This document shows positions 1 through 54,578 of a stretch of 64,000 nt of DNA, piece after piece. The position numbers and the translations under genes were made by a program. Position 1 is the first letter of the stretch. Every line of letters starts with the position of its first letter. Source of the stretch: Candidatus Bathyarchaeota archaeon (GTDB taxonomy: Archaea; Thermoproteota; Bathyarchaeia; Bathyarchaeales; Bathycorpusculaceae). The stretch covers positions 128,001 through 192,000 of the forward strand of contig CAVZKL010000017.1 of assembly GCA_963775895.1 (NCBI GenBank), given 5' to 3'. A model generated the notes under the pieces. That model did not search any database. It saw only the letters and a list, made by a program, of their open reading frames with translations, and was not told the DNA's origin.

Positions 1-98
1 ACCACGCCTATTCCAGCTTCAAGAATTCCTCTCGCGATGGCCTCGTTACCGAGTAGAAGCACCCGTCTCCTGGGAGTGTCTTGAAGCAGCACTCTCAT
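1..98 (-). CDS. iorA: Indolepyruvate:ferredoxin oxidoreductase alpha subunit, N-terminus only (runs off window)
   Basis: Hand translation from ATG at 98 gives MRVLLQDTPRRRVLLLGNEAIARGILEAGIGV; LLGNEAIARG is the IorA N-terminal signature. Confidence 0.8.
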   Translation of the reverse strand, partial: MRVLLQDTPRRRVLLLGNEAIARGILEAGIGV

Positions 99-264
99 GT
101 CTGGCAATAAACTTCTCCTCAGACTGATCAGAAAGTTCTGACAGTCTGTGTCTTTCACATATAGCTTTTGGTGAAGATAAGTTGATACGTTATATCGAAA
201 TGGGCAAACCGAAAGTATTATTAAAATCCAGACAAGATAACTGCAACCTCTCGAGGTTTACATC

Positions 265-1710: not shown

Positions 1711-1750
1711 AGCCCTCTTCTACCTCTTTTTCGCCGCTCCTATGATTTTT

Positions 1751-2413: not shown

Positions 2414-2458
2414 GTTACAGCGTCTGTTTGCTTAGTACCACAGATTTTTCAGTGGAGC

Positions 2459-36015: not shown

Positions 36016-36099
36016 CGTGCATATTTGGATCCTAATATTCATGATACATTGAAACCGAGGAGGGTAGGGTACACAATAAGCTTTTTTTCAGCGAATAAA
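36016..36099 (+). repeat. Copy 1 of a conserved intergenic element (49-bp exact core 36016-36064)
   Basis: CGTGCATATTTGGATCCTAATATTCATGATACATTGAAACCGAGGAGGG is identical to the reverse complement of 54530-54578; similarity continues through GGTACACAAT and CAGCGAATAAA. Confidence 0.92.
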
Positions 36100-36152
36100 T
36101 CCCCGCACACTTCACCGTGCAACTAAGCCCATATGTCGAGCATCCTCACTTT

Positions 36153-37521
36153 CTAAGCTTCTCGGTCAACGATCTTCTTGATCTTTCTCAACGCAGGACT
36201 CAGCCTGACAGGATATCGACGAACACGCGTAAGCCTCTTGTAATCGTCAGGGAGTCGCGATAGGTTCTCAATAGTTGCTTCTCTGATCTCTTCCAGACTA
36301 GGCGCCTCACGCGAGGATCGTCCTCTTTCCATGACTCTAGTCAACAAAGATTCCCCAGCCACCTTCTCATTCTCCAACCCGATCACGTCCTGAACGTACC
36401 TTCCGTCCTCGTCGCTCTGCCTGAAAACCTGTTTCCTCCCCGGCAACGTGATCTTGCCCTCGCTCAATTTCATCGCCGGAACAAAAACCCCACGCTCAAA
36501 CATGCCCGACAGTTTATAGACAACGTCAACATAAGGCCTGTCAAAAGAAGTACTCATTCGCGTGCCAACTCCAAACGCATCGATCATCGGCGCCCTTTCT
36601 CAACAAATCCGCGATCACAAACTCGTCCAAATCTCCGGTCGCGAAGATCTTAACGTACTCAAGACCATGAGAATCCAGTATCCTCCTCACTTTCCTACTC
36701 AAACCCAGCAAATCACCGCTGTCGAGCCGAACGGCGTTCAACCTACGCCCCTCCTTCTCAAGCTCTTTAGCGACGACGGCAGCGTTCTCGGCGCCCTTCA
36801 ACGAATCGTAAGTGTCTATGAGCAGAGTTGAACTGTCCGGAAACGTCCTTGAAAAAGCTCTGAAAGCATCTATCTCATGGTCGAAGGACATGACGTAAGA
36901 ATGCGCCATAGTTCCAAACACAGGAATATTGTACTTCATGCCTGCAAGAACGTTGGAAGTACCGTCAGCTCCGACGAGATAGCTACACCTCGCCGCCTTC
37001 ATTCCAGCATCGGTTCCCTGACTTCTCCTCAGACCGAACTCCACCACAGACCTGCCCCGCGCCGCACAGACCACTCTGGAAGCTTTCGTAGCTAACATGG
37101 TCTGCAAGTTGACCGTGTTAAGAATGAACGTCTCAATCAACTGAGCTTCAATCATGGGCGCAGTGACCCTAATCAGGGGCTCGTGCGGAAAGACCACAGT
37201 TCCCTCACGAACGGCCCACACTTCACCCGTGAACCTGAAGTCTTCAAGATAATCAAGAAACTCCTCACTCAGCTTCCGTTTCCTCAAATACCCGATCTGC
37301 TCTTCACCGAACCTCACGTTTTCCAGATAAAGCAACACCTGCTCCAGCCCGGCGAAAATGAAGTACGACCTGTTGGGAGGCAGTTTTCGAATGAAAAGAT
37401 CAAACGTCGCGACTTCATTCCTCTCGTTTTCAAAATAACTTGCACACATTGTCAACTCATAAAAATCGGTCAAAAGATCCATGTTCGTTTCACTAACAAA
37501 GTCAAAGCCAGCTTTCTTCAT
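36153..37521 (-). CDS. pncB: Nicotinate phosphoribosyltransferase; apparent frameshift near 36590
   Basis: LLTDFYELTM, EFGLRR, GTMAHS, LIDTYD, VRLDSGD, FGVGT, VYKL. Confidence 0.92.
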
Positions 37522-37650
37522 TCCGCACCCTCAGAAGCAATATTTTTGGCTGTTCACTTTAACCTATCTCTCCAAGCACTACAAAGTGTTTTTCCAGTGA
37601 ACGTTTATCTGGCTTCTTCACAGCCTTCCATCTGAGCTGGGGAGCTACGC

Positions 37651-38364
37651 ATGTCTATTTTGTCAACCAAAAAACTCAGACGTCTTTCCCTCGGTTTCCC
37701 CACTTTAGACGATGTTTTTACAGGATTTGAGCTCGGCGATTTTGCCGTCACACAAGGCAATGCAGCGCCATTCATGTCCTCGGTTCTTTCTGTCCGTGCT
37801 CAGTTACCAAGCGAGCGCGGAGGTTTAGAATCATCTGCCGTTTTCATCGATGGCGGCAACTCGTTTAGCCCCTATGAAGTTGCGGAAACCGCACGCGATT
37901 ACGGCTTGGATTGCAAGGCAACCTTGGAAAAAGTGTACGTTTCAAGGGCTTTCACCGCCTACCAGCTTTCATCACTAGTTCTTGACAAGGTTTGTTCCGT
38001 TCTGCGAAAGACTAGGACTAGACTACTGATCATCTCAGACATCACCTCTCTGTTTCTTGATCGCGACATGCCCAAACTTGAAGGAAGAGAACTCTTCATG
38101 AAACTCTGTTCAAAACTTTCTGCAATTGCATCCGAAAAGCAGACGATCGTTGTCGTCAGCTATTTTCCGCAAAGTCGATCCAGACAGAGTTTGTTCTTTG
38201 AAGCTGCTTTGTTCGGAAAATCCAACGTACTAATCACGTTAAAGAGGCGCGGACAAGCAGTAAGTGTCTTTTTGGAAGACCATCCTCACATCAAACCTTT
38301 CTGCATGGATTTTACCCCTGATAAACAGCACGGTCACATTTATGGAGGCACGAGTTTTGGGTAG
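37651..38364 (+). CDS. RadA/RecA-fold protein lacking Walker A (PolB2-associated)
   Basis: LSLGFPTLDD, RAQLP..GGL, FIDGGNSFSPY, VSRAFTAYQL; no GKT motif. Confidence 0.8.
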   Translation: MSILSTKKLRRLSLGFPTLDDVFTGFELGDFAVTQGNAAPFMSSVLSVRAQLPSERGGLESSAVFIDGGNSFSPYEVAETARDYGLDCKATLEKVYVSRAFTAYQLSSLVLDKVCSVLRKTRTRLLIISDITSLFLDRDMPKLEGRELFMKLCSKLSAIASEKQTIVVVSYFPQSRSRQSLFFEAALFGKSNVLITLKRRGQAVSVFLEDHPHIKPFCMDFTPDKQHGHIYGGTSFG

Positions 38365-38626
38365 AACCGTTCCGTCTTACAGACAAGCTTTAGAAGAGGA
38401 GATCATACGTTGGGAAGGCTTCAAGAGAGCTCTGCGAGACAAAGACGAAGAAGCGTTTGACAGAATGATGAACGCGTGCAGGATCTACGCGTCAGCGGGC
38501 GGCATGGCGACAAGACCTATACTCACCGAGGCGATGTTCATGTCCATCTTGCTGAGCCATCGGAAAGAACTAATGGAGATCCGGGAAAGTCTTGAGCGAC
38601 TTGAAAAAAGGCTTCGTCAAACTTAA
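38357..38626 (+). CDS. Small PolB2-associated helical protein (arCOG07300-like)
   Basis: TTG start after GGAGG; MGRTVPSYR..E..W..F.RAL...D; lies between the RadA-like gene and PolB2. Confidence 0.8.
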   Translation: MGRTVPSYRQALEEEIIRWEGFKRALRDKDEEAFDRMMNACRIYASAGGMATRPILTEAMFMSILLSHRKELMEIRESLERLEKRLRQT

Positions 38627-40892
38627 TCCCGTTCGAGGATGGCTGTTTGACGTTTACCCTTCAGGCCCGGACGAGATTACTATCTGGCTTATTACAGAAA
38701 ATGGCGAACGCGTTCGATTCATTGATAGGTTTATCTTTAGAATTTATGTTTCTGGAAATCTTTCTGACCTCAACCGCTTAGCGGAAAAGACCAAGAGCAA
38801 CAATCTGATAACAGATTGTCGTCTCGTTGAAAAGAACGCCGATTTCATGGAAGGCCACAAGCACAAAGTCTTGGAAGTGAGCATCAAAGATCACACGAAA
38901 GTTTCATATTTAGCCACAGATCTGTTCAGGTTTGGCAATAACGGAAGCCTTCGTTTCTACAATGTTGATGTCACAGTTCCACAAGCCTATTTGTACGACA
39001 AAGATGTTTTCCCATTCGCACATGTTATGGTCGTCGCCTCTGGAAAACGACTTTGTTACGACTTGCTTGATTCGGTTGAAAGCGTCGATTATTCTCTCCC
39101 CAAACTGCGCTCGCTATGGCTCAAGGTGAGTGTCAAGAAAGAAGGAGTTTCACAAAAACCGACTGACAAGATAGATCGCCTTTCTTTGGAACATGATGGA
39201 AAGACAACGGTTATCGATGACGCCAATGAAGAAACGAAGATCCTTGAGCTTGTTAAAGCTTTCAAGAATTTAGATCCTGACGTGGTTTTCACGGAAGGTG
39301 GAGACTCCTTCTCGCTGCCCTATCTCGCTCATCGCGCCTTCGTCAACGGCGTACTGGATCGTTTTGTACTAAGCAGAGAAGACATTCCTTTGAAATTGAT
39401 CAAAGGCAAAGGAACAACCTTCTTCTCTTATGGTCGAGTTTACCACAAAGCTCCGATGCAGAGACTTTTCGGCAGAGTGCACATCGACGTTAACAACACG
39501 TTCATCTATTCCGCATGCGGTTTAGAAGGACTCATTGAGGTTTCAAGAACCTGCAGAGTTCCCATCCATCGCTCTTCAAGAGCTTCTATCGGAACAATAA
39601 TGTCTTCTCTACAGCTTTACACCGCGTGGAAAGATAGCACTCTGATTCCGTGGAAAAAGAACGAGCCAGAATCTTTCAAAACAGCGTGGGAATTGTTTGT
39701 TGCTGATCGCGGCGGTTTCATTTTTGAGCCCAAGATCGGCTTTCACACAGATATTTTCGAAGTTGACTTCACCTCTATGTTTCCTACACTAATGCTAACG
39801 CGGAACATTTCAGCTGAGACTGTCCTCTGCAAGTGCTGCCCAGACTCCAACAACCGAGTTCCAGAACTAGGCTACAACATTTGTGAAAAGAGGGAAGGGA
39901 TCGTTCCTAAAACTCTGAAGTTGCTCTTAAGGAAACGTTCGAGGTACAAGAGTCTGATGAGGGAAATTGAAGACCCGAACTTAAGGCACGTTTACAGCAT
40001 GCGGCAGGCTGCTCTTAAATGGATTTTAGTGACATGCTTCGGCTATTTAGGGTACAGAAACGCGCGTTTCGGAAAGGTTGACGCTCATATCGCCGTATGC
40101 GCTTTTGCCCGCGACGCATTATTGAAGACAGCTAGACTGGCCGAAGAGCATGGTTTTGAAGTTATTCACGGCATTGTAGATTCGCTGTGGCTGAAGAAAA
40201 TAAACGCCCACCCTGGAGAGATCGTTGATTTTTGTCATGAAACTTCAAAAGCCATTAACGTTAACTTGGGTCTTGAAGGGAAGTATCGGTGGATCGTTTT
40301 TCTACCCTCGAAAGTCTTGGAAGACGTTCCAGTTTTAAACAGGTATTACGGCGTGTTTGAGAACGGCGATATTAAGCTCAGAGGTGTTGAGGCCAGACGA
40401 GGAGACACGCCCATTCTAATTGTCAAAGCTCAGATGGAAATGATCAGGAAACTCGCAGGCGCAAACAGTCTGGCAAGTTTCAAAGAAAAAATCCCTGAAG
40501 CTTTGCACGTATTGAGAGCTTATGCAGATAAAGTGGTAGAAGGTGAAGTGGATTTACAGGAATTGCTAATTACCAAAAGAATCTCAAAAACGCCTACGAA
40601 CTATAGCCATGACGTTCTTCAGGCAATCGCGTCAAAACAGTTGGAGAAGGCAGGTTTTGAGGTGCACGCAGGACAAACCGTCCAGTATGTGATGACGAAT
40701 GTCGCATCTAAATGGGTCAATGAAAGGGTCACTGCAGAGCAACTCCTGAAGTCCAGCACCCATTACGACGTTAAGGAGTATATTAAACTCCTAATTTCAG
40801 CAGGAGAAACTCTATTCAACCTGTTCGGATACAACAAACGCTTTATTGAAACCGAAGCTCTATTCAATGAACGCCAGCAGATGCTTTCATAA
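38592..40892 (+). CDS. Family B DNA polymerase, PolB2 (Dpo2) group
   Basis: GWLFDVY, DRGG, EVDFTSMFP, N(I)SAET, KWILVTCFGY, HGIVDSLW (YGDTDS variant), N(R)YYG, RGVE.RR.D. Confidence 0.9.
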   Translation: MSDLKKGFVKLNPVRGWLFDVYPSGPDEITIWLITENGERVRFIDRFIFRIYVSGNLSDLNRLAEKTKSNNLITDCRLVEKNADFMEGHKHKVLEVSIKDHTKVSYLATDLFRFGNNGSLRFYNVDVTVPQAYLYDKDVFPFAHVMVVASGKRLCYDLLDSVESVDYSLPKLRSLWLKVSVKKEGVSQKPTDKIDRLSLEHDGKTTVIDDANEETKILELVKAFKNLDPDVVFTEGGDSFSLPYLAHRAFVNGVLDRFVLSREDIPLKLIKGKGTTFFSYGRVYHKAPMQRLFGRVHIDVNNTFIYSACGLEGLIEVSRTCRVPIHRSSRASIGTIMSSLQLYTAWKDSTLIPWKKNEPESFKTAWELFVADRGGFIFEPKIGFHTDIFEVDFTSMFPTLMLTRNISAETVLCKCCPDSNNRVPELGYNICEKREGIVPKTLKLLLRKRSRYKSLMREIEDPNLRHVYSMRQAALKWILVTCFGYLGYRNARFGKVDAHIAVCAFARDALLKTARLAEEHGFEVIHGIVDSLWLKKINAHPGEIVDFCHETSKAINVNLGLEGKYRWIVFLPSKVLEDVPVLNRYYGVFENGDIKLRGVEARRGDTPILIVKAQMEMIRKLAGANSLASFKEKIPEALHVLRAYADKVVEGEVDLQELLITKRISKTPTNYSHDVLQAIASKQLEKAGFEVHAGQTVQYVMTNVASKWVNERVTAEQLLKSSTHYDVKEYIKLLISAGETLFNLFGYNKRFIETEALFNERQQMLS

Positions 40893-40969
40893 CAATGGAT
40901 TCTATCGAAAAATCGCTAGTCTTAATAGTTTGGTGCGTCATTGTAATTTTTTCTAATCTGGTGTAACAA

Positions 40970-41932
40970 GTGGCACCTGTAATTCGCATGCAAAACCTGA
41001 CAAAAAAATACGAAAAAGTAACAGCAGTCGATCATCTGACCATGGATGTGGAAGAAGGCGAAATACTTGGGTTGCTGGGGCCTAACGGTGCAGGGAAAAC
41101 CACTGCGATCCTAATGCTTGCCACTGTAATTAGACCTACAGAAGGTACGGCCTTTGTAGGGGGATATGATATACGCAAGCAGCCTGAAAAAGTGCGAGGC
41201 ATGCTAGGCATCGCGTTTCAGGAACCGAAGATGCTGTGGGTTTCTACTCCATGGGACCTGGTCAACTGGCACGCGAAAGTCTGCGGTCTTTCAACTGAAG
41301 AAAGGAAACGGCGGGTCAAAGAGGTGTTAAATGCCGTGGAGATGTGGGACGCGCGACGAAAGAACGTCAGCGAACTTTCGGGTGGCATGCGAAAACGAGT
41401 TGAAATGGCCAAGGTATTGGTTCAAAGACCGAAGATCGCGATAGTGGATGAGCCCACTGCGCAGATCGATATCGTTGGCAAGCACAGAATCTGGAACATG
41501 CTCCTAGAACTTCGAGACGAAGGCTCGACGATCATTTTGGCGACAAATGAGCTTTACGAAGCTGACCAGCTCTCAGATCGCGTTGGAATATTACACAGGG
41601 GAAGACTATTGGTATGTGACACTCCGAAAGAGCTGAAAGACAGTATCGTGGGCGGCGACATAATGGACCTGCAGTTTGAGAAGGACGCACCTCCGGGGAT
41701 AGTTGTTGAACTCAAGACACTCCGAGAGGTCGCTGATATAACACAGCTTAAACCGACTAGCATGCGCATCTACCTGAACAAGGTCGAGGAGATTGTTCCG
41801 CGAATAATGAACCTTTTCGCCAAGAAGAACGTTCAGATCACGTCTGTGAGAATGAGTGAACCTAGTTTGGATGACGTTTTCGCACACTATACAGGTCTCA
41901 CGATTGAAGAGGCACAGAAGGATGAGGAGTGA
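40970..41932 (+). CDS. ABC-2 (DrrA-like) exporter ATP-binding protein
   Basis: GPNGAGKTT, LSGGMRKR, VDEPT, C-terminal EPSLDDVF. Confidence 0.92.
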   Translation: MAPVIRMQNLTKKYEKVTAVDHLTMDVEEGEILGLLGPNGAGKTTAILMLATVIRPTEGTAFVGGYDIRKQPEKVRGMLGIAFQEPKMLWVSTPWDLVNWHAKVCGLSTEERKRRVKEVLNAVEMWDARRKNVSELSGGMRKRVEMAKVLVQRPKIAIVDEPTAQIDIVGKHRIWNMLLELRDEGSTIILATNELYEADQLSDRVGILHRGRLLVCDTPKELKDSIVGGDIMDLQFEKDAPPGIVVELKTLREVADITQLKPTSMRIYLNKVEEIVPRIMNLFAKKNVQITSVRMSEPSLDDVFAHYTGLTIEEAQKDEE

Positions 41933-41948
41933 GAAATAGACGAACAAG

Positions 41949-42716
41949 TTGCTCCTTGTCATTGAAAGGGACGTTCGTCTTTTCTTTCAGTACAAGTTCA
42001 TAATTATTCTGAGAGCTATCTGGTTCGTTGCACAGATTGTCTTGTTCGGATTGATTGCGTCCAACATGATGAACGTGAACGTCGTCAAAGACTACTTCCG
42101 TTACTATGTTGCGGGACTTTCGGTAATGACATTGTATTCCGCAGCAATATTCATCGGCTTCGACATCTATGAAGAAGCTGAACACGGCGTTTTTGAGTAC
42201 TTACTCAGTCTGCCGGTTTCTAGAAGACAGCTCGTTCTCGGCAGGTCGATAGGTGGAGGATTGAGGTCATTCATATACGTAGGACCGCTAATCGCCATTT
42301 CACTTTACGTCATAGGATCACTTAATCCACTTCAGTTCCTCGTTTCATTACTTGCGTTGTTTCTGTTTTCATTTGGCGTCTCCGGATTTAGCATAACGTT
42401 GGCAGTCATGATAAAATCAAGTGACAGATTCGACATACTAATGGGAGTATTAGACGCGTTGATCGTTCGTCTTAGCACAGCTATGTATCCTTTGGTAATT
42501 GTAATGAAAGCCAACCCTGCTTACGGTGAATTGGCCACGTTTAATCCCGTGACCTTCGCAGCAGACCTATTCCGTTGGGGAACAGGCCTAGAAAGCATAA
42601 TAACGATCAGCAACCCGCTGTTATCCTTGTTGGGCGTTGTTATTTTCTTCGGTCTATTCACCTATTTCGGCGTCGTGATCTATGAGAGACGTATTGAAGG
42701 CGGTGGATGGCGATGA
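41949..42716 (+). CDS. ABC-2 type permease
   Basis: About six TMs, LLSLPVSR, NPVTFA. Confidence 0.88.
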   Translation: MLLVIERDVRLFFQYKFIIILRAIWFVAQIVLFGLIASNMMNVNVVKDYFRYYVAGLSVMTLYSAAIFIGFDIYEEAEHGVFEYLLSLPVSRRQLVLGRSIGGGLRSFIYVGPLIAISLYVIGSLNPLQFLVSLLALFLFSFGVSGFSITLAVMIKSSDRFDILMGVLDALIVRLSTAMYPLVIVMKANPAYGELATFNPVTFAADLFRWGTGLESIITISNPLLSLLGVVIFFGLFTYFGVVIYERRIEGGGWR

Positions 42717-43495
42717 AGAAAGGAATCCTCCACATCGTTGAGCATGATCTGACGAACTTTTTCCGCTACAAGTGGTGGCTGGCAGGATTAATCGCCATGA
42801 ACCTTGCTGACTTATTCATAATGGCAATAGTTTACAACAATATGCTCAAACCAGACATAACAACGGAAATCAAGAGCTACTTCGACTTCTTTGCTCCAGG
42901 CTTAGCAGTGACAGGTTTGTTTGCATCGGCGTTTATGATTGGACGTGAAGTCAATGTTGAGAGACGAAGAGAAATTCACCATTACATGTTGAGCCTGCCG
43001 ATGTCACGAATAGAACTGGCGGTCGGACGAGTGATCTCGGGAGGCGTACGAGGATTGATCTACATGACCCCCTTGCTTCTGACTTGTTTTGTGTTTCTGG
43101 GGTTTCCATCATTGCCTCAGTTGCTTCTTATTTTGGCAATGCTCTTCCTTTTGGCGATGGGAATTTCGGGATTGAGTATATCAATCGCGGTGTCAACAGG
43201 AAGCTTTGAGAAATTCGTTACGGCGAGAGGCTTGGTATACTATACACTTTTCTTTTGTAGTAGCGTTTTCTACCCTCTGTCGGTCATTCAAAACCTAGGC
43301 CAGACTGGACAGTTTCCAAGTATTCTCGTGAGCTTTGCTGAAGTGAATCCTCTGAGCAGCGGTTCCGACATGATCCGCAATTTCTTGCTCGGCTATCCAG
43401 ATTTCTCGCAATACTGGATGGTCTCAGCTCTGATTTTTGCTGCAATATTCACCGGCTGTGCCATAGTCGCTTATATAAAAATCCTTGCGAGATAG
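42707..43495 (+). CDS. ABC-2 type permease
   Basis: FFAPG, LSLPMSR, SSVFYP, NPLS. Confidence 0.88.
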   Translation: MAMKKGILHIVEHDLTNFFRYKWWLAGLIAMNLADLFIMAIVYNNMLKPDITTEIKSYFDFFAPGLAVTGLFASAFMIGREVNVERRREIHHYMLSLPMSRIELAVGRVISGGVRGLIYMTPLLLTCFVFLGFPSLPQLLLILAMLFLLAMGISGLSISIAVSTGSFEKFVTARGLVYYTLFFCSSVFYPLSVIQNLGQTGQFPSILVSFAEVNPLSSGSDMIRNFLLGYPDFSQYWMVSALIFAAIFTGCAIVAYIKILAR

Positions 43496-43624
43496 AGTGT
43501 CGACTTTGACTTAGTCAAGTTAACGTGCACTTGATCCCGTGTTTTGACGACCACGTTGGCAAGCATCAACTATATCTGCATAAACCACAGAATCTATTGT
43601 TTGTCGTTATTGCCAGGTGAAAGA

Positions 43625-45327
43625 TTGAGGACGGGCGTCGAACCTCGAGAGGCAGGATTAATTCGTGAAGTCATGAGTTTCTGCAGTCATGCTGCCAAAC
43701 CCTGCCAGATCGTTGCTGCTTTGATCAGAAGTGACTATGCATCGATATACCCGACGGCTCGAACGGTCATGCAAGTTCTAGCCGTGATCCGAGATTTTCA
43801 ACCAAGACTAATGAACTACGTGAAGGTCATTGGAGGAGTGAACGTTTCAGTCTTGGGAGTAGACCAATGGGTCTTTGAAAGAGACATTGACAGGGGATTC
43901 CTAGGAGAAGCCTTGGCTGGCGCTCTAGTTTTTCCTTATTCCACATTGATGAATGAAGGCTATTTTCGCCTGGAGGAGAAAAAACTAAAGAAACGGCTGA
44001 TAACGGAACTTCTCGAGAGTCTTATTCTTGATTTCCCTGAACTATCATATGATCTGCGCATCAAGCCCGAGTACTTCATGTACGAAACGATGCTTACGAG
44101 AGGGCGACTATTTCCTCCAACGTTGTACGCGCTTGCGGACTTGATGACTGACAGGCCGAGAAGATATCGAGTGTTCCCTGCGTGGTTTTCTTGAAGCCGA
44201 CGAAAGAACTCGAACAGAATGGAATACTCTACAAAACCGATGGTTATTTGAGAATCTCTAAAGAGTTTGTTGACCGTGTCCGTGCGCGAAAAATGCGATT
44301 CATGGACCTCTTCAGAACAGGACAAAGAGCTTTGTTTACGGCTGCGCTGGGGCTTTTCCCGCAGATCTTTGATGCTATGTCCCGTAATCGCAACGAGTTT
44401 CTGAAACTCCAGAAGGCTTTCTTGGACGAATCTAAGATCATGCAGAGCATCGAGGATCCAGAGAACTATGTGTATGTTCCCACATCGAGCGGGCTCGTCT
44501 CCCTTGCAAATAGAATGGACATTGAAGCATATGCAAGAAAAGAATTATCCACTGACAAAGATGCTCAGATCAAAATCAAGAGCATCGGAGGCATTCTGAA
44601 CGACGTTTATTCGGTCGAGTTGCTAACGAAGGATCGCCATAGAAAGGTGATAGTGAAGAGATTTAGGGAGTGGGCAAATTTCAAGTGGTTCCCGCTTACA
44701 CTATGGTCAGCTGGAACAAGAACATTCGCCATGGCGGGAATATCGAGATTGGAGAAAGAATGGGCTATTAACCGTCTGCTCGATTCTCACGGTTTTGCCG
44801 TTCCGAAATTGCTGCATATCAGCCCTGCAGAACGTCTTGTGGTCATGGAGTATGTCGAGGGCGAAAACCTGAGCAAAGTTGTCAGACGCGTTATGAGTGC
44901 AAGAAATGACGAGGATCTTAAGGTTGACTTCGAGATTATAAGGAGAGTCGGTGGAACGTTTGCTCGTGTTCATTCTTTGAACGTTGCTCTGGGAGACACA
45001 AAACCAGAGAATGTGCTGGTGGGAAAGAACGGTGAAATTTGCCTGATGGATTTCGAACAGTCTAGCCGAAACGGTGATTTGGTATGGGATATCGCAGAGT
45101 TCATGTACTACTCTGGGCATTATGTGTCTCCGCTTCTTGACACAACGAAGATTCAAATGTTCGGTGAGACTTTCGTGAGAGGCTATTTGGAATCGGGTGG
45201 AAAAGCCAACATCGTCAGAAGTGCGGGTAGCCCCAAGTACACGAAGGTTTTCAGTGTTTTTACGTTTCCACACGTCATGTTCGTTCTTTCCAATATTTGC
45301 AGAAAAGCGAAGGAGTTGAAGGCGTAG
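43625..45327 (+). CDS. Atypical protein kinase (Bud32/RIO/KDO-like) with N-terminal nucleotidyltransferase-like domain; apparent frameshift near 44170
   Basis: VIVKRF, VPKLL, VMEYVEG, H..NVALGDTKPEN, MDFEQ, WDIAE; the upstream ORF (AGGTGA RBS, TTG at 43625) joins by frameshift. Confidence 0.75.
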
Positions 45328-45329
45328 CG

Positions 45330-46668
45330 ATGGTACAGCTTGAGACACGTCTGACTTTCTACGGTGGCGTGAATGAAATTGGTGGAAACAAAATACTCCT
45401 GAAAGACGGCGATACCAAGATCTTCTTCGATTTTGGCATGTCATTCGGAATGAAAAGACTGTTCTACTCGCCTCCCTTTCTTTCGCCGAAGAGCGAAAAA
45501 AGTCTTCAGGAATTCGGCATTCTACCAAGACTGGACGGGGTTTACAGATTTGATGAGAAACAACCAGATGTTGATGCGATCTTCATCTCTCACGGGCATT
45601 TGGACCATTGTGCCTACCTCTCCTTTGTAAAACGCGAAATTCCAATATATTGCGGCCAAACTACCAACATCATTCTCCAGTCATTGGGAGACATAAGACG
45701 GACGGACCTAGAATTCGACGTGCGAGGGCTGAATTTCAACACATTCAGAACTGGAGAAAAAATACGCTGCGGCAATTTGGAAATCGAGCCAATTCACGTA
45801 GACCACTCAGTTCCCGGCGCGTATGGTTTTGTCGTCCATACTTCGAATGGATCGCTGGCTTACACGGGCGACTTCAGGCATCACGGCGCAAAAAGCGAAA
45901 TGACTGATGATTTCACTGAGAAAGCATGTGAATCCGAGGTCAGGACGATTATTACTGAAGCTACGAACATGACAGGCGCTTCAGTGTCTACTGAACGCGA
46001 GGTAGAAAGCAAACTGGACGCCGTCGTTAGTAATTCAAAAGGGATTGTGCTTGCGGAGTTTGCTTACGCAGATGTTGATCGCTTCAACAGTTTCCTCCAC
46101 GTAGCCAAAAAAAACAACCGATGTCTCGCGATTTCCCTCAGGCAAGCCTATCTGCTGGAAGCACTTCGTGCTGACAAGGGCCTGCGGCTTCCGAACATTA
46201 ATGATGAGAGCATCTTGATTTTTCGAAAGTCGAAGACCAGCAGTTACAAATGGGAAAAACAGTTGGCTGATCGATACGCTGACAAGGTAAAAGGGGCGTT
46301 CGAACTCTCGAAGCAACAGGGCAATGTCATCTTGGCAATGTCTTTCTATGATCTTGAAGAGCTTGTTGAGATCCGACCGAACGCCGGGAAGCTGTTATGT
46401 ACTGTCCGCGTCCGAACCGTTCAATGAGGAAATGGAGATAGACTTCGAAAGATTGGTGAACTGGCTCGACCATTATGGACTTCCGCAGTATCACGTGCAC
46501 GTTTCAGGACACATAATGCCCCTGCAGTTAAGGTCGGCTATTGAAAAAATCAATGCAAAAACTGTTTTTCCTGTTCACACTGAGAACGCGCAATTGTTCA
46601 ATAGGTTCATGCAGGATTCAAAGAGGAAAGTGATCTTGACTGAGAAAGAAAAGGAATACAGGCTCTAG
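45330..46668 (+). CDS. Metallo-beta-lactamase fold hydrolase, RNase J-like; apparent frameshift near 46385
   Basis: GGVNEIGGN, DFG, SHGHLDH, VDHSVPG, YTGDFR, HVSGH, PVHTE. Confidence 0.88.
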
Positions 46669-46755
46669 CCTATCAGAAGTGATTGCTCCGAGAGTCGAGT
46701 TGATGGACAAAGGGTTTTATGGCTAGAAGAGCACAATATAACAAGAGTTGATAGA

Positions 46756-46995
46756 ATGCCGATGGCGTTTGTTCTCATCAACACTGAACTAGGAACTGAA
46801 ATGGACGTTCTGAAAAACGTGAGAAAAGTGAAGGGGGTCGAAGAAGCTTTCGCTGTCTATGGAACTTATGACATAGTCGTTCGTGTCAAGGCGGACACGA
46901 TGGAACGCCTCAAAGAAACCGTGTCAGCTCAAGTTAGAAAGGTTAACAATGTTAGAGCCACTTTGACGCTGATGTCTTCAGAGGATTCAAAGTAG
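46756..46995 (+). CDS. Stand-alone Lrp/AsnC ligand-binding domain protein
   Basis: AFVLIN, VYGTYDIVVRV, VRATLTL. Confidence 0.9.
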   Translation: MPMAFVLINTELGTEMDVLKNVRKVKGVEEAFAVYGTYDIVVRVKADTMERLKETVSAQVRKVNNVRATLTLMSSEDSK

Positions 46996-47049
46996 CATCC
47001 AAATCCCATTTTTTGTCCTTTTGAAGGAAATATCTGTTAGAAGCGTCAT

Positions 47050-48241: not shown

Positions 48242-49174
48242 TCTATTATTGATTTCATTTTTTCTGCGACTTCTGATAGAGCTATCGTAGGTTCCTTCGG
48301 GGATTTTCCTCAAACATTCCGCCACATGAATTCTCTCAGTCTTGCTCAGATCGAATAGTTTCCATCCTTGACTGTGTATTAGCTGCTGTTTCGTCGCAGG
48401 GAAGCATGCGTCTTCTCTTAGCACCTCTTCTAATGAGGCGATTCCAGTTGAATTTGTTATCGATGGGAACTTGCCAGTTTGTTTGTAGGACTTCAACCTG
48501 ACAGCGTCTTTGTACATTCTTACAAAGTGAAAGCTCATGACTATCTTCTTGGATCTGCTACTGGTCGCCTTTCTATCTATTTCTACTAATTCCCCGTCAG
48601 TTGGTTGGTAAACGTTGTGTTCACCCTTGCCGAACAGCCTTGTGTACAGTACGTCTGAATCGTAAGCTGGGGTCTCGCCTTTCGAAAGGTCAACCGAGTG
48701 AATGATGTTAAAGTCCTGCATCACCTTGAGAAGTCCGCTAGGCAGATCGGCGCTTGGAGTTCTTCTGATTTCGAGCGCCAGTCTCAGACTTCCCAGATTC
48801 AGCGAACGCAGGGTTTGGCGAACGTTTTCAATCGTTGTTTCATTTAGTTCAAATGCTGGAGGTGCTTGAAGATGAAGGATTTCAGCGTTCAGCACATTGC
48901 AAATCCGTTTCATCTTCTCAAAGGATTCGAAAACCTCCTTTTCAGGCTTGAGTCTGTGCTTATGCGTAATCGATCTGTGTGCTCTGACCGAAAATTGAAA
49001 GTCGGTGAGTACCATTTTTCGCCAGCTCTCTGCTTCAGCAAGAGGAGGGATTTGATAGAAGGTCGAGTTGACCTCCACAAAATTGAAAACTTTCGAATAC
49101 GCTACTAACGACTTTAATTTCGGAACTTGAAAGTACGCCCACCCGCCAGCTCCAATGAGGTATTCTGTCAACAA
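48238..49174 (-). CDS. DUF72 protein with C-terminal DUF2795-like domain; joined to the next gene in the ORF track by a probable one-base indel near 48280
   Basis: IGAGGWAY, VEVNSTFY, LEIR, YTRLFGKG; C-terminal FPATKQQLI..IPEGTY; the shifted frame ends LSEVAEKMKSIIE* with a GTGA overlap. Confidence 0.75.
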
Positions 49175-49322
49175 ACGTCTCCTTGTAATTATAGTTCATT
49201 GACAGTCTCAAAAACCTTGGGATTGGGCGATCGCGGTGAGTGTTTAGCCTTGATACTGATCTCGGATTATTATGCGATGTAGAGTGCGATGATTCAGAAT
49301 GTATAATTGGTAGTATGGACTC

Positions 49323-49580
49323 ATGCTACTCACGATAGCGATGACGACGACTACGCGACAGGATCGCCGAACGCAGGTGCTTTTTCACACTCTTGGTCTC
49401 AGTTGTATAGGCGGCGCAATATTTCTGCAGATTTTGGTTTTCACTGACATACTCACTAATGGCTATTTTATGGCGGTGGAACACAACTTCGTAATTTTGA
49501 CTTTTGAAGTGCTTCTGACGGTCTTCTCGTTCATCTATTTTATTTATATGTATCAGCGCTTCATTCGGTCCATAAGATAA
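49323..49580 (+). CDS. Small two-TM membrane protein
   Basis: Two hydrophobic helices and a basic C-terminus. Confidence 0.6.
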   Translation: MLLTIAMTTTTRQDRRTQVLFHTLGLSCIGGAIFLQILVFTDILTNGYFMAVEHNFVILTFEVLLTVFSFIYFIYMYQRFIRSIR

Positions 49581-49695
49581 ATCAAAGTGTTGATTCTTTT
49601 TGATGACTGTTTTCAGATTTTGTTACGATCGATGGAAAATGTTAAATAACGTTTCCGCAGAACACGGTCAGTAGTCGCTCTCTGATGGTGAAGTA

Positions 49696-50433
49696 ATGAG
49701 GGCTTTCCGCTTGATTAGACTATTGCTGCTCGTATTGCCTCTGACTTTAGTTTTGCTCAACTCCGCGAGTGTACTTGCCGCGGAGGAGAAAATGAAGAGT
49801 TTTTTCAATTCTGAGATGACTGGAGTCACGATTGGGGTCAAGGCAACGCAACTCGTCGAACCGGGGCAAAGCGTGACTGTAGTTATGACTGTGAATACAA
49901 CTTTCCACGTACATATTGAGCGAATCGGTCTGGAGATATTCGGCTTTGTAAACGGCACGGACCAGCTTTCAATAGGAAACATGTCCGATGGCGACTTTGA
50001 CCTGAACGACACTCTGAAAGAGTACGTTATCACAACCACTGTTCCAAACAATGTGTGGGGTTCCACCTACGGAGAGATAAGATTAACCTACTCAGTCAAC
50101 ATGGGTGGGGCTATACTCCAATTTCCGAATATCATCAACGGTTTTCCATTAACCCCCGTGGAAAACACATTAGTCAAGAGCCTTGAAGAACAGATCAAGA
50201 GCTTGAATGAGAGCTATAGCCAATTGTCCCAAATGTATGCGAACTTGACCAACGCGTTCGTCAACCTGAACCAAAGCTACTGGAATCTACAAGGAAATTA
50301 TACTTCTGCACAAAACAGCCTAGGGGAACTGGACAACACCCGGCGTCTATCGACGATCTTGGCGATAACTACAGTTTTCTTCTTAGCTACAACGGTCTAT
50401 ATCGTAGTGAGAAGACCAAGAGATTACTGGTAA
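49696..50433 (+). CDS. Secreted, C-terminally anchored protein with coiled-coil stalk
   Basis: Signal peptide, beta-rich domain, N-glycosylation sequons in heptads, TM followed by RRP. Confidence 0.75.
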   Translation: MRAFRLIRLLLLVLPLTLVLLNSASVLAAEEKMKSFFNSEMTGVTIGVKATQLVEPGQSVTVVMTVNTTFHVHIERIGLEIFGFVNGTDQLSIGNMSDGDFDLNDTLKEYVITTTVPNNVWGSTYGEIRLTYSVNMGGAILQFPNIINGFPLTPVENTLVKSLEEQIKSLNESYSQLSQMYANLTNAFVNLNQSYWNLQGNYTSAQNSLGELDNTRRLSTILAITTVFFLATTVYIVVRRPRDYW

Positions 50434-50498
50434 ATCGTGCTTTGCAGCAGAACAGTCTAGCACGTTTCAATATTGAAAAATTCGCTTGAATCCGTTCC

Positions 50499-51792
50499 CT
50501 ACTTCTCGTGAAGTTTCTGAGCTGCGACGAAGGCTAGTCCATTTTTCGTGAGAGCTTCCGCGGTTCTGTTCACAGCATCGTGTTTGTCAAGGTAGTTCAA
50601 TAGCAGCTGCGGCATCAGTCCTTCCATCGAGAATATCTTTTTTGGGCCTGAAGTAGTCGAGGATATCCGATGCATGCTTTCTCTTGACTTCGGTTGCTGG
50701 AAGCCCACCTTCATGTTTTGCGCCGATGTTTCTGACATGGTCTGCAAGTTCGAGAAGTTCGCTAGTTCGGTCGTAAGGCTCTCGGACTATGCTCTTGTAC
50801 GCTTCCGTTATGTGATGCTCGATGCGAACTACGTTTTCAAAGTCAAAGAAGTCTCTCACGTAAGCAGCAAGTTCTATCGTCTGATTATTAACGGAGTTGG
50901 AAAGGTTGAAGCCGATAAGGGGCGTCGACCCATCTTCCCTGCTGAAGAGTTTCGCCGTCAATAACGTCCAGAGTATAGAGTACGGGTTGTCAATTCCCAG
51001 AAACACCGATATCTTGAATTCAATGTCGATGCCTAGCTTACGTAGCCAATATCCGAGCAAAACGGTTCCAGCGTTCGTGTTTAGTACTTGCGTGACCCCG
51101 TACTCAGTGTAGTAGTGCAGGAACTCGTCGACCCATTTCAACGAATACTCGTTCGGTGCTCCTACACCTCCGAAGTAGCCTGTTATCGTTTCGGGTCCAC
51201 CCAGGTGAACATTTATTGGTTTGCCATCCGGCCCCGATAGGGTTCCCTTCGTGTCCAAAGTCTGCACGTAAGAAGCTCCGATGATCTGCATTGACGCGGC
51301 GAAAGCAAGAATGTCGCCGTCTTCCACCTGTTCCTTCATTGAGCGTACGCGAATGTACCGACCGGGCATCAGTTCCTGTTTTTTGATGGCTTGCTTCGCT
51401 TCCTCGATGAGCCATGGGAAAAAGTTGAGGGCGCTGATTTCCAGGGTGACGGGAAAAGATTCGTCAAACTTCATCGATTCCGCTTTTTTTCCGAGGATCT
51501 TCTTTCTGTAATCGTGTATACTAATAAAAGCTTCTTTGTCGCGTTGATTGCTGAGCCATTCAAGATCCTTTGTGAATGATGATTTCTTTTTCTTGAGCCT
51601 GTTCATCAGGTTGTCAATCTTGCGAGCGTCTTCGGCTTTCTTGTTAATCTCTTTGACGCCGCCATACTTGTCGATGATTTCGAGCAGTCCGTTAACGAGG
51701 GGATTGTCCTTTTTCAGCAAGAACTTGTTAATTTCATCGAGATTTTGGTGGTCTATGCGTAGTTTGTCCCTAAGGTTAATCAAGATATTCAT
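50499..51792 (-). CDS. Conserved-looking hypothetical protein (about 430 aa); apparent frameshift near 50625
   Basis: Long ORF with enzyme-like Gly/Pro motifs (LMPGRYIRVR, DTKG, HLGGPETITGYFGG, AKHEGG); continues as EGLMPQLLLNYLDKHDAVNRTA in the next frame. Confidence 0.8.
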
Positions 51793-51922
51793 CCTCTCTG
51801 TTGCGATAACCTGTTCACAGCTTATTGTTTATAGTATTTTCGGAAAGAACGAATTCGATTGTTTTTTCGACAAAAATGAACTTAAATAATATAAGACCGA
51901 TGAACGTCTAAGAGGTCGTGGA

Positions 51923-53407
51923 TTGCTTATGTTCAAGCCTGAAGGAATTTTCCCCGCTTTGGTGACACCGTTTACCGATGATGGAAGTGGCGTTGATGAA
52001 CAAAGGCTGCGAGCGCTAGTTGACCATTGCATCGAGATGGGGGTTCACGGAGTCGTTCCATGTGGAACGACCGGCGAGTCTGTTAATTTGACGGTCGAAG
52101 AGAAGAAACGGGTCATCAGGATCGTGGTTGATGAGGTCAACGGAAAGGTTCCGGTCATAGCTGGGACAGGTTCCAGCGGGACGGACCAGACTGTTGAAAT
52201 GACGAAGTATGCCAAGGACGCTGGAGTGACGGCTGCTTTGATCGTCACGCCTTATTACTTGAAGCCTGCGGACCGCGGAATTTACGAACACTACAGCACC
52301 ATAGCGAGTGAAGTTGACTTGCCGATAATATTGTACAACATTCCGCAGTGCACGGGGTTGGATTTGCCTTGGCAGATGGTGGAAGACCTTGCCCAGATAC
52401 CGAACATCGTTGGTGTCAAAGACAGCAGTGGACAGTTGAAGTTCATACTGGCCGTTCTGGAAAAGGTCAGAGACAAGATAAATGTGCTTTGTGGACACGA
52501 TGAAGTTGTGATGGCTGGTCTAGCTGCGGGTTGTTCTGGCGCCATACTTGCCAGTGCTAATGTGATCCCTGACGTTTGGGTTCAAATGTACAACCATGTC
52601 AAAATGGGTGAGCTTCAGCAAGCTCGCGAGCTTCAGTACAAGATCCAAAAAATAGCCAGGATAATCGCCGGAAGCGGAGCGGTTGGAACAAAAGAGGCTT
52701 TGAACATGATGAAAATCAAGGTGGGGCCCGTCAGAAAACCTCTCAGTGTGGGTGGAGAGTTGACGTATGAATCAAGAGAGGAACTGCGTCTTGACCTGGA
52801 AAAGATCGGAAAGATAAAGCCTAGGGTAATATCCTTCGAGATGCCAGAGAAGCCGATCGAAGAACGGTTCGCGGCAGTCGAGATAACACCCGAGATCATC
52901 AAGGACTGGAATTTGCGAGTCGGGGAAGCTTTGGCGGGACAGGGTGCAGAAGTGGCACACATCGATCTTCTGATCGGCAGAAAAGATGGTCCTGTTGCTG
53001 CGGCTCTTGCGACTGCGAAAGCGACGCCGGAATCGGGACACGAGCCTTTGCTTGCAATTCTGGAGCCTAATCTTTCCGTCAAGCCTGTGACTCTGATCGT
53101 GCCAACTGTTACTATAACGAGTATGCGGCAGGCAAGTATGGTTTATGGTCCGGCGCAGACTGCGGTGGCAAAAGCCGTTGTTGACAGCGTTGCAGATGGG
53201 ACAATTCCCAAAGCCGCAGTAGACGAATTGGTGATAATCGCGAACGTGTTCGTTCATCCGACTGCGGTCGATAGACAGAGAGTCTACATCAACAATTACA
53301 AGGCGATGCGACATGCTATTCGCAAAACTGTGGAAGGCAGACCGAGTATTGACGAGCTCATAGAGAACAAGGATCGTTCGAAGCATCCGTTTAAGTATGG
53401 TCCGTAG
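51923..53407 (+). CDS. DapA/NAL-family class I aldolase fused to formaldehyde-activating enzyme (Fae) domain
   Basis: N-terminal PALVTPF, GTTGES, TPYY, LYNIP, GVKDSSG; C-terminal (from about 52910) VGEAL..EVAHIDLLIG, PNL.VKP, GPAQ.AVAKAV, VFVHP, NNY, HPF. Confidence 0.9.
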   Translation: MLMFKPEGIFPALVTPFTDDGSGVDEQRLRALVDHCIEMGVHGVVPCGTTGESVNLTVEEKKRVIRIVVDEVNGKVPVIAGTGSSGTDQTVEMTKYAKDAGVTAALIVTPYYLKPADRGIYEHYSTIASEVDLPIILYNIPQCTGLDLPWQMVEDLAQIPNIVGVKDSSGQLKFILAVLEKVRDKINVLCGHDEVVMAGLAAGCSGAILASANVIPDVWVQMYNHVKMGELQQARELQYKIQKIARIIAGSGAVGTKEALNMMKIKVGPVRKPLSVGGELTYESREELRLDLEKIGKIKPRVISFEMPEKPIEERFAAVEITPEIIKDWNLRVGEALAGQGAEVAHIDLLIGRKDGPVAAALATAKATPESGHEPLLAILEPNLSVKPVTLIVPTVTITSMRQASMVYGPAQTAVAKAVVDSVADGTIPKAAVDELVIIANVFVHPTAVDRQRVYINNYKAMRHAIRKTVEGRPSIDELIENKDRSKHPFKYGP

Positions 53408-54216
53408 TGAGCGCAGTGATAGACGACCTGATTGTCGAGGGGCAGTACGTACTTCTCGAATTGAGTCAGCGCAAGACCTACTTGGTCAAGGTTGAAAAGG
53501 GCAAGAGTTTTCACACGCACAAAGGGTTTGTGACGTTGGACAACTTGATTGGAAAAGCGTATGGCTCAACCATATCGAGTAGTCTGGGTTTCGAGTTTGT
53601 TGCTCTGAAACCCATGCTTCGTGATTACATTTTGAAGTGTGCGAGGCAGACGCAGATCATGTATCCCAAGGACATTGCTCTGATAGTTATGTTCAGTGGA
53701 ATTGGACCTGGGAGTCGTGTGGTTGAAGCAGGAACTGGTACGGCAGCGATGACTACGGCCTTGGCGCATTATGTTAAGCCGAGTGGCAAGGTTTACAGTT
53801 ACGAGATCAGGGAAGAATTTCGGGTAACGGCTGAGAAGAATCTTGTCAGGGCTGGGTTGATTGATTTTGTGGAATTGAAGAACAAGGACGTAACGGCAGG
53901 AATAGATGAGGAAAAAGTGGACGCTGTGATTCTTGACCTCGCTGTTCCATGGCTGGTGGTTCCACGTGCATACGATGCTCTGAAAGCCAGCGGGACGATA
54001 GTCTCGTTCAGTCCAACGATAGATCAGGTTGTGAGAACCGTTGACGCGCTCAGGGAGAATAGCTTCACTGACATCGAGACCGTTGAATGTTTGATGCGGG
54101 GTATGCAGGTGGAAATCGGAAGAACTCGTCCCCAGACACTGATGACCGGTCACTCAGGTTACATCACGAACGCGCGCAAGAAAGTCAGGACCGGTGCATC
54201 AGACGAGCCAGCGTAA
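53407..54216 (+). CDS. trmI: tRNA (adenine-N1)-methyltransferase
   Basis: FHTHKG, QIMYPKD, VVEAGTG, YEIREE, LDLAVPW, SFSP, GHSGY. Confidence 0.93.
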   Translation: MSAVIDDLIVEGQYVLLELSQRKTYLVKVEKGKSFHTHKGFVTLDNLIGKAYGSTISSSLGFEFVALKPMLRDYILKCARQTQIMYPKDIALIVMFSGIGPGSRVVEAGTGTAAMTTALAHYVKPSGKVYSYEIREEFRVTAEKNLVRAGLIDFVELKNKDVTAGIDEEKVDAVILDLAVPWLVVPRAYDALKASGTIVSFSPTIDQVVRTVDALRENSFTDIETVECLMRGMQVEIGRTRPQTLMTGHSGYITNARKKVRTGASDEPA

Positions 54217-54495
54217 CTGGGTTCTAAATGTGAGTATTTGCATAGAGGATTCTTCTAGAAGCTTGTTTCAGAAACGATAAATCATCTGGTTCTGCGTATC
54301 ATGATTCTGTAGAGAGAAATTCAGGAGTTGAAAGGAGAGGGGAGACGTGGATTGCGCATCCATTTAGGGGTGCGCGGTCCAATAAAGCCGAGGACTTTCT
54401 AGTTGCGTGCGCGTCACTCGAGTTTGGATTATTGAACTGAGAAATCGTTTGTCTCATGCGGGTTTTGAAATTCAAAATGGTCGTCAAGGTTTAGG

Positions 54496-54578
54496 TTTAT
54501 TCGCTGTTTTTTCAGCCATTGTGTACCTCCCCTCCTCGGTTTCAATGTATCATGAATATTAGGATCCAAATATGCACG
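54496..54578 (-). repeat. Copy 2 of the conserved intergenic element (49-bp exact core 54530-54578), inverted relative to copy 1
   Basis: Reverse complement matches 36016-36064 exactly. Confidence 0.92.

What the first reader, a model, noticed from the sequence alone, without database searches (positions are those of the whole stretch)
36016..54578. 49-bp perfectly conserved intergenic element in two inverted copies 18.5 kb apart
Seen: 36016-36064 equals the reverse complement of 54530-54578, with looser similarity over about 35 more bp (GGTACACAAT..CAGCGAATAAA). It contains imperfect dyads (ATATT-N8-AATAT; TTCA-N8-TGAA) followed by ATTGAAAC and a G-rich string. Both copies are non-coding and have the same polarity relative to the transcription of their flanking genes. 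If the ends are extended to the nearby CAC (36011 and 54582), a 4-bp CTCT direct repeat flanks the block, which may be chance. No transposase, integrase or Cas gene lies inside, and core trmI does. Inference, competing options: an Orc1/Cdc6 ORB-like box (GAAAC plus G-string); a centromere-like site for the nearby wHTH-ParA pair; recombination sites of an invertible segment; or a dispersed ncRNA or repeat family.
Basis: partly seen in the sequence, partly recalled or inferred. Interest (0 to 1): 0.8.

Follow-up and report, generated by a model that had tools for sequence, protein, structure and literature searches.

The report
Viral packaging-signal repeats across archaeal chromosome
The two inverted copies belong to a 36-copy repeat made of the first 84 bases of the gene that sits directly before the large terminase in viruses of Bathyarchaeia, so it is likely a viral DNA-packaging signal scattered over the chromosome, which would let viruses carry the neighbouring host genes between cells.

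Summary
The 49-bp match is exact, but the pair is two of 36 copies of an 84-bp repeat in this Bathyarchaeia genome. Earlier agents of this scan found the family and its strand skew on other contigs; none named its source. The repeat is the 5' end of a ~120-aa helical-hairpin gene that lies directly before terL in 24 of 30 genomic and 10 of 10 IMG/VR loci: a likely small terminase. One intact copy of that gene remains in the genome. Other genera amplify their own allele (up to 45 matches). Copies form convergent pairs (10 of 13 within 30 kb), sit at synteny breaks (18 of 24), and head a 3-4 kb one-sided tract of G>A/T>C change that also starts at this gene in terS-terL loci. Best reading: dispersed pac sites that direct helper-virus packaging of host DNA (inferred, 0.55). 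Against: no structural proof of TerS, no terL found in this genome, and one relative shows a different, two-sided skew. ORB, parS, CRISPR, MITE and invertible-segment readings fail their tests.

The parts
36016..36099 (+). Copy 1 of the 84-bp repeat; 5' end of the terS-like gene; likely pac site pointing right
   Evidence: left flank and element shared with G005 and G009, right flank not, so a synteny break
36021..36038 (+). 18-bp palindrome (perfect in most relatives); holds the predicted TTG start at 36025-36027; in G004 an island is inserted into it with a 9-bp direct repeat
36050..36069 (+). GAAAC plus G-string; the part kept most widely at the start of terS-like genes, coding or not
   Evidence: G-string at 18 of 22 terL-linked genomic loci with room upstream
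36070..36099 (+). 3' tail (28 copies with a T-run form, 7 with an A-run form, 1 other); similarity to the intact gene ends within a few bases of it in all truncated copies
54493..54578 (-). Copy 2, convergent with copy 1; A-run tail as in the intact terS-like gene on contig C22; absent at the orthologous site in G001 and G005
36106..37521 (+). A/C-rich tract downstream of copy 1 (keto skew -0.16 over +85..1500; G>A 15 vs C>T 1, T>C 21 vs A>G 2 in this lineage), over the NAPRTase gene
51572..54487 (-). A/C-rich tract downstream of copy 2 (-0.09 and -0.08; G>A 26 vs C>T 15, T>C 28 vs A>G 5), over trmI and dapA-fae
38500..46000 (.). 7.5-kb tract 92-96% identical to G005 against a 70-80% background: recent exchange between species inside the convergent pair

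Best explanation
The element is the first 84 bases of a gene that lies directly before the large terminase in Bathyarchaeia viruses, likely the small terminase (TerS), and its 36 chromosomal copies likely act as pac sites from which a helper virus would package host DNA in one direction. SHOWN: the copy on contig C22 opens an intact ~122-codon ORF; homologues overlap terL or, in satellite-like elements, a tyrosine integrase; each lineage amplifies its own allele; copies pair up convergently, sit at rearrangement breaks and head a 3-4 kb tract where the lower strand carries a single-strand damage pattern whatever way the genes point; the same tract starts at this gene in several terS-terL loci. 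INFERRED: (1) the protein is TerS; (2) the terminase recognises palindrome plus G-string and cuts within about 450 bp upstream; (3) in the recipient the fixed pac end is resected 5' to 3', leaving the lower strand single-stranded for some kb, where C and A deaminate before it recombines in; (4) pac ends that join at new places seed new copies and cause breaks; (5) convergent pairs persist because each lies inside the headful started by the other and so is passed on intact.
For: Gene slot: terL within 450 bp downstream in 24 of 30 genomic loci and 10 of 10 distinct IMG/VR loci; terL identity by Pfam Terminase_6N E=1.9e-18 and PHROG 2; G001 holds terS-like, terL, portal, scaffold, major head and tape-measure genes in a row. 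Model: helical hairpin plus C-terminal helix, pLDDT 77, the build described for GTA-type TerS (PMC6854486, passages). pac lies inside terS in P22 (PMC9611059, passages). DNA-level constraint: synonymous diversity 0.16 in the core against 0.34 in the rest of 44 intact genes, with the bases before the start codon invariant (genes were picked by core match). Allele-matched amplification: G245 45, G182 20, G260 7, G274 3, G070 1 matches; palindrome in 21 of 61 family genomes, reversed control 0. Skew: 32 of 35 copies negative, mean -0.18 against 0 +/- 0.014; four-fold sites follow the strand, not the gene; G>A 94 vs C>T 30, T>C 83 vs A>G 29, G>C 30 vs C>G 10, T>A 24 vs A>T 5 at +85..3000 for 4 of 36 copies polarised on three relatives; same bias at all alignable copies against G005; starts at the gene in terL-linked loci. 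Convergence: 10 of 13 pairs within 30 kb, 0 of 20000 shuffles; 15 of 35 in six other genomes, P=0.004. Breaks: 18 of 24 against 129 of 406 controls, P=3e-5. Precedent: convergent pac-like sites direct P22 transduction, and ES18 cuts up to 500 bp from pac (PMC11260489, abstract and passages).
Against: TerS is not shown by fold or family: no Pfam or PHROG name, only generic hairpin matches (Z at most 8.1), and no helix-turn-helix in the 97 residues modelled, which in GTAs goes with loss of sequence specificity (PMC6854486). No terL, portal or major head gene was found in this genome (88.8% complete), so a helper is assumed. G260 shows a different pattern: a sharp A/C to G/T switch at the element, -0.46 to -0.80 just upstream and up to +0.60 downstream, in 7 weaker copies; one-ended resection does not give this. 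Skew is weak or absent at most copies in congeners (pooled -0.05 to -0.10; G005) and at some viral loci (L238, L255). Total substitution rate is barely raised (0.066 against 0.057). G245 alone has no convergent excess (4 of 17). Recent-exchange tracts are not clearly tied to copies: the two longest lie 2.5-16 kb downstream of one, but at most 3 of 8 lie within 30 kb downstream, where 43% of aligned sequence lies. Other skewed tracts in the genome lack the element; some are integrase-Rep elements.
Confidence: 0.55

Rival explanations
1. The palindrome is mainly a recombination (att) site for tyrosine integrases of small satellite elements; the copies are scars of integration, excision and exchange, and the link to terS is passive.
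For: G004 has a 5305-bp island inserted into the orthologue of copy 1 with a 9-bp direct repeat in the palindrome; the island's right end also lies before the copy on G000 C13. In 11 of 59 informative metagenome loci the gene is followed directly by an integrase. Copies are enriched at breaks.
Against: The island ORF has no Pfam match. Integration does not explain the kb-long one-sided skew, its start at this gene in terS-terL loci without an adjacent integrase, or the convergent pairs. The window block is not inverted against its right flank.
Confidence: 0.18
2. The 5' end of the gene carries a viral replication origin or priming site; chromosomal copies fire locally and imprint strand bias.
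For: G260 shows an origin-like switch from A/C-rich to G/T-rich at the element. The GAAAC plus G-string resembles ORB boxes (recalled). Integrase-Rep elements in this genome are skewed too.
Against: In G000 the downstream strand is A/C-rich, the opposite of a leading strand leaving an origin or of a strand displaced from a nick. The true ORB-like boxes differ. Skew at four-fold sites around the orc1 origin is about 0.1 or less away from copies, against 0.5-0.8 beside them. No initiator gene is tied to the copies.
Confidence: 0.13
3. A protein bound to the element is a polar fork barrier; forks arriving from downstream stall and expose the lagging template, and convergent pairs are fork traps.
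For: Polarity of the skew, convergent pairs and breaks all fit.
Against: The only orc1-linked origin (C18, about 25.6 kb) lies between convergent copies at 3.0 and 29.0 kb, so both forks would be stopped within 26 kb. It does not explain origin from a viral gene, allele matching or the G260 pattern.
Confidence: 0.05
4. The copies are neutral remnants of terS-bearing proviruses and satellites (or an operator or translation signal of that gene), spread by ordinary recombination, with the skew inherited from the viral DNA.
For: Solo intact genes are common (38 of 59 informative metagenome loci) and carry skew inside the gene only. Many congener copies show no tract.
Against: In G000 the skew lies on host core genes such as orc1, trmI and NAPRTase and arose in this lineage. 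All 35 truncated copies keep the same 84 bp and lose the rest. Convergence is not random.
Confidence: 0.09

Closest known systems
P22 pac site in terS and the pac-like sites of the Salmonella chromosome (PMC11260489, abstract and passages; PMC9611059, passages)
   Same: Signal inside the small-terminase gene; chromosomal look-alikes that would direct packaging downstream; a convergent pair flanking a highly transduced region; cut sites spread up to 500 bp from pac in ES18.
   Different: P22 look-alikes are nine short motifs inside host genes, 561 kb apart for the main pair. Here there are 20-45 near-exact, intergenic copies of the gene's own 5' end, pairs are 4-26 kb apart, the host is an archaeon, and there is a mutational footprint. 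Packaging is not shown here.
SaPI/PICI TerS and island-mediated generalized transduction from SaPI pseudo-pac sites (PMC6687093, passages)
   Same: Small integrase-bearing elements carry their own TerS-like gene (L205, L208); scattered sites would give unidirectional packaging of unlinked host genes.
   Different: Unrelated sequence; TerS-like gene overlaps the integrase; solo genes and bare 5' ends far outnumber whole elements.
Gene transfer agents and GTA-type TerS (RcGTA gp1; PMC6854486, passages)
   Same: Short all-helical protein without a helix-turn-helix directly before terL; G001 has a 24-kb morphogenesis module with no integrase or replicase seen.
   Different: GTAs package nearly at random; here a specific site is amplified. 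terL modules are patchy (5 of 10 congeners; 35 of 61 family genomes) and not at one fixed locus.
Strand-asymmetric damage of vertebrate mitochondrial DNA and of resected break ends (recalled, no call)
   Same: One strand gains G and T by C>T and A>G, with C>G and A>T as minor classes, in a gradient.
   Different: Local, 3-4 kb, repeated at many sites of a prokaryotic chromosome.
MITEs, REP sequences and DNA uptake sequences (recalled, no call)
   Same: Short dispersed intergenic repeat; self-spread by being the entry signal of a transfer route would parallel uptake-sequence drive.
   Different: No terminal inverted repeats or target duplications, no transposase; derived from a viral gene start.

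Membership tests
Small terminase (TerS) | Gene directly upstream of terL in a head-packaging module | tested here: met
   24 of 30 genomic and 10 of 10 distinct IMG/VR loci; full module in G001
Small terminase (TerS) | Helical-hairpin oligomerisation core | tested here: inconclusive
   Hairpin predicted; fold searches return generic hairpins only
Small terminase (TerS) | [quoted passage not shown] | tested here: inconclusive
   None in the 97 residues modelled; the basic first ~25 residues were not modelled. GTA-type TerS lack it (PMC6854486)
Small terminase (TerS) | Binds and stimulates TerL; needed for packaging | not tested
   No complex prediction was obtained; needs bench work
pac site of a headful packager | Lies in or beside terS and is conserved as DNA | tested here: met
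pac site of a headful packager | Directs cleavage and one-way packaging | not testable with these tools
   Only indirect signs: one-sided skew, convergence, breaks
Orc1/Cdc6 ORB | Matches the boxes at the orc1-linked origin and clusters around an AT-rich unwinding element | tested here: not met
   Origin boxes read TTCCAGAGGAAA; copies are single and dispersed
parS-like centromere | Few sites clustered near the partition genes or origin | tested here: not met
   36 copies on 19 contigs
Invertible segment | Block flips between two inverted sites, both present in relatives, with a recombinase nearby | tested here: not met
   Copy 2 absent and right flank colinear in G001 and G005; no recombinase in the window ORFs scanned
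MITE / IS end | Terminal inverted repeats, target-site duplication, sharp ends, cognate transposase | tested here: not met
   No consistent flanking repeat; left ends fuzzy; the long form encodes the terS-like protein
CRISPR repeat | Arrays of repeats with spacers, cas genes | tested here: not met
   Closest copies 1322 bp apart and no array-like repeats on any contig; only a weak 55-position Cas1 fragment hit
Gene transfer agent | Fixed, host-controlled morphogenesis cluster that packages host DNA without site preference | tested here: inconclusive
   Modules patchy; none found in G000; particles not testable
Known ncRNA family | Rfam match | tested here: not met

The most novel reading that the evidence does not exclude
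A selfish packaging-signal drive in archaea: the 5' end of a viral small-terminase gene spreads through the chromosome as its own repeat family, re-seeded in each lineage from the current allele, organises itself into convergent pairs one headful apart, turns the host chromosome into a directed transduction substrate, and leaves a readable single-strand mutation scar that maps past packaging starts from sequence alone.
Probability: 0.42. Interest if true: 0.92.

Novelty: new variant of a known kind. Interest (0 to 1): 0.8.

Why it matters
Whether pac-like sites in host chromosomes are accidents or are selected is posed as an open question for P22 (PMC11260489, discussion passage). Here tens of near-exact copies, matched to each lineage's own allele and arranged non-randomly, make that question testable at scale in an abundant uncultured archaeal class with no known gene-transfer route in the papers I searched. 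If right, it also gives a sequence-only marker of packaging starts (the strand skew), names TerS candidates and satellites for Bathyarchaeia viruses, and explains local compositional bias and rearrangement hot spots in these genomes.

Tried and rejected
Rfam: no match at the element. Exact 34-nt pattern in IMG/VR: 0; single-protein search there: 0 confirmed; the alignment search found 11 loci. Fold searches: no specific match, which excludes nothing. ESM Atlas: unnamed archaeal and viral clusters, one with DUF8136 on 16% of members; not informative. TerS-TerL complex prediction: no verdict, job not run. No RNA holder listed among public runs, which says nothing on expression. Reads on 30-50 kb were contigs only and listed no strand-changing joint among the 15 of 21 shown; whether copy 2 is polymorphic in the population stays open. 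An ATG after the G-string in 7 copies looked like a transposase start but is out of frame with the real ORF. Genome-wide test of recent-exchange tracts against copies: weak, see evidence against (1.92 of about 2.3 Mb of G005 held). A generic A-tract/G-string motif does not predict skew in G000 (1 of 29). The pattern for the second G005 repeat found nothing in IMG/VR or in 201 genomes of the order (G005 was not in the sample, so no positive control). One search's skew table lost loci through a faulty pattern and was redone; one search's family rows were mis-oriented and redone. Rolling-circle or oriT displacement was rejected for G000 on polarity.
Full report
OBSERVATION. The 49-bp inverted match is exact and is the longest inverted repeat in the window. 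It is two of 36 copies of an 84-bp repeat on 19 of 28 contigs of the genome G000, with no intermediate matches between 2 and 10 mismatches. Nine of ten congeners carry a 46-bp core. An exact degenerate pattern over 185,579 species genomes gave 50 stretches, 48 titled Bathyarchaeia and 2 titled as Acidobacteria, which I take as mislabelled. Contig depth on the element is some 50-100 times the flank in runs of two studies, so the repeat is real.

ORIGIN. Several congener copies continue into a shared ORF. In G000 the copy on C22 reads through an intact ORF that begins at the TTG inside the palindrome; all 35 other copies lose similarity within 6 bases after the tail. The protein has 113 homologues among 116 candidates, without Pfam names, and matches in 44 of 251 class genomes. 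Of the 30 loci returned there, 24 have terL within 450 bp downstream, often overlapping by 4 bp; so do 10 of 10 distinct IMG/VR loci; of 80 metagenome loci, 10 have terL, 11 an integrase, 38 neither, 15 are too short and 6 are duplicates. terL is certain, and G001 has the gene in front of terL, portal, scaffold, major head and tape-measure genes. The model is a helical hairpin plus a C-terminal helix with no specific structural match. That is the build given for GTA-type TerS, which lie directly before terL and lack the helix-turn-helix (PMC6854486, passages). So TerS rests on gene slot and build, not on a family hit.

A DNA SIGNAL. In 44 intact genes synonymous diversity is 0.16 in the core and 0.34 in the rest, and the bases before the start codon are nearly invariant (genes were chosen by core match, but one search shows the core at the same offset in nearly all close loci found by protein). 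Other genera amplify the start of their own allele: 45 matches in G245 (40 of 68 candidates scored), 20 in G182, 7 weaker in G260, 3 in G274, 1 in G070. The palindrome occurs in 21 of 61 family genomes, the reversed control in none. G005 has a second family of 24 loci that shares the G-string and tail; its source gene is not established.

ARRANGEMENT. Of 13 neighbouring pairs within 30 kb, 10 are convergent and none divergent; 0 of 20000 strand shuffles reach this, while spacing itself is random. Six other genomes pooled give 15 of 35 against 8.7 expected (P=0.004), but G245 alone gives 4 of 17. Against G005, 18 of 24 informative copies lie at synteny breaks (12 gave no information) against 129 of 406 control gaps (P=3e-5). 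In the window, copy 1 is such a break and copy 2 is an insertion into a colinear site, so the block is not an invertible segment. In G004 a 5305-bp island sits inside the orthologue of copy 1 with a 9-bp direct repeat.

STRAND SKEW. On the element strand, G+T minus A+C is near 0 beyond -500, ramps to -0.31 at -50, holds near -0.2 to +1000 and fades by +4 kb. It is negative at 32 of 35 copies and follows the DNA strand, not the gene (four-fold sites A+C 67% on co-oriented and 32% on opposed genes, 52% in background). Polarised on three relatives at 4 of 36 copies, G>A, T>C, G>C and T>A exceed their mirror classes three- to five-fold within 3 kb and are even upstream; all alignable copies show the same against G005. 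This is the pattern of damage on a single-stranded lower strand (established knowledge). The tract also starts at this gene in terS-terL loci (4 of 4; pooled) and is seen at 21 of 27 sampled family copies. Against generality: it is weak in congeners, absent in some viral loci, total divergence is barely raised, and G260 shows a two-sided A/C to G/T switch within 500 bp, which I cannot explain by one-ended resection. The upstream ramp and the dip at +100 to +250 in G000 may be the same short component under a long one-sided one (inference).

MECHANISM (inferred). pac lies in terS in P22 (PMC9611059, passages); convergent pac-like sites drive transduction of the region between them, and ES18 cuts up to 500 bp from pac (PMC11260489, abstract and passages); SaPI TerS packages host genes one way from scattered sites (PMC6687093, passages). 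I propose that a helper terminase cuts just upstream of each copy and packages downstream; the fixed end is resected in the recipient, damaged and recombined in; mis-joined ends seed copies; convergent copies carry each other. terL is common in the family (35 of 61; 5 of 10 congeners) but was not found in G000 (88.8% complete). A 7.5-kb tract inside the window pair is 92-96% identical to G005, but the genome-wide link between such tracts and copies is weak.

RIVALS. An att role is real at one locus but does not cover skew or convergence. An origin role fits G260 but not G000, and the true ORB-like boxes lie before the single orc1. A fork barrier would trap that origin between two copies.

NOVELTY. 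Seven full-text searches (listings and abstract starts seen) gave no description of amplified terS starts, of such repeats in Bathyarchaeia, or of skew downstream of pac. The Bathyarchaeia virus preprint 10.1101/2023.08.24.554615 has no occurrence of pac site, packaging or transduction in its main text (passages only, supplements not seen). Subscription papers are not covered. Earlier agents of this scan reported the 36 copies, the skew and the breaks on other contigs; a word search and a sequence search of those notes found no terminase reading for this family. Verdict: new variant of a known kind, interest 0.8.

Noticed in passing
window 36153-37521: The NAPRTase gene is split over two frames near 36541-36587, while the G005 orthologue is in one frame. 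Several one-base differences against public contigs suggest assembly errors in the window.
   Followed up: partly
window 37651-40892: RadA-like gene followed by a family B polymerase, likely the PolB2 cassette (name recalled); it starts the tract recently exchanged with G005.
   Followed up: no
window 55218-56919: wHTH, a 125-aa ORF without Pfam match and a ParA-type ATPase, conserved in order in congeners; not tied to the element.
   Followed up: partly
G000 C18:99659-104709 (L111) and C23:15689-21922: Small elements with a tyrosine integrase and a Cys-rich Rep-like ORF on opposite strands, strongly strand-skewed, with the integrase frame starting in what looks like a tRNA-Pro half; no copy of the repeat. 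Similar ones in G005.
   Followed up: partly
L205:8282-11466 and L208:4894-9669: Satellite-like elements in which the terS-like gene overlaps a zinc-ribbon tyrosine integrase by 4 bp; L208 ends at tRNA-Ser beside a restriction-modification gene, and the related locus L216 lies beside a GmrSD gene.
   Followed up: partly
G005, 24 loci: Second dispersed repeat sharing the G-string and hairpin tail but not the palindrome; weak polar skew (-0.06 to -0.09); three copies have the hairpin loop inverted.
   Followed up: partly
G260 loci L366, L370, L374, L377, L380, L383, L386: Very sharp two-sided strand switch centred on the element; unexplained.
   Followed up: partly
G001 C1:2054500-2077000 (L151, L152): 24-kb tailed-virus morphogenesis module in a one-contig chromosome with no integrase or replication gene seen; two similar modules in G008; GTA-like candidate.
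   Followed up: partly
L049: A copy inserted at a gene junction with about 35 bp of imperfect target duplication relative to the empty site on G000 C6; the only such case seen.
   Followed up: partly
G000 C15:23-44 kb, C18:48-63 kb, C28:10-25 kb, C9:24-36 kb: Long skewed tracts without the repeat or an integrase hit; cause unknown.
   Followed up: no
G000 C13, C14, C17, C18, C19, C20, C22, C2: A ~320-bp repeat in about eight copies encodes a dockerin-like C-terminal domain of secreted proteins (by inspection).
   Followed up: no
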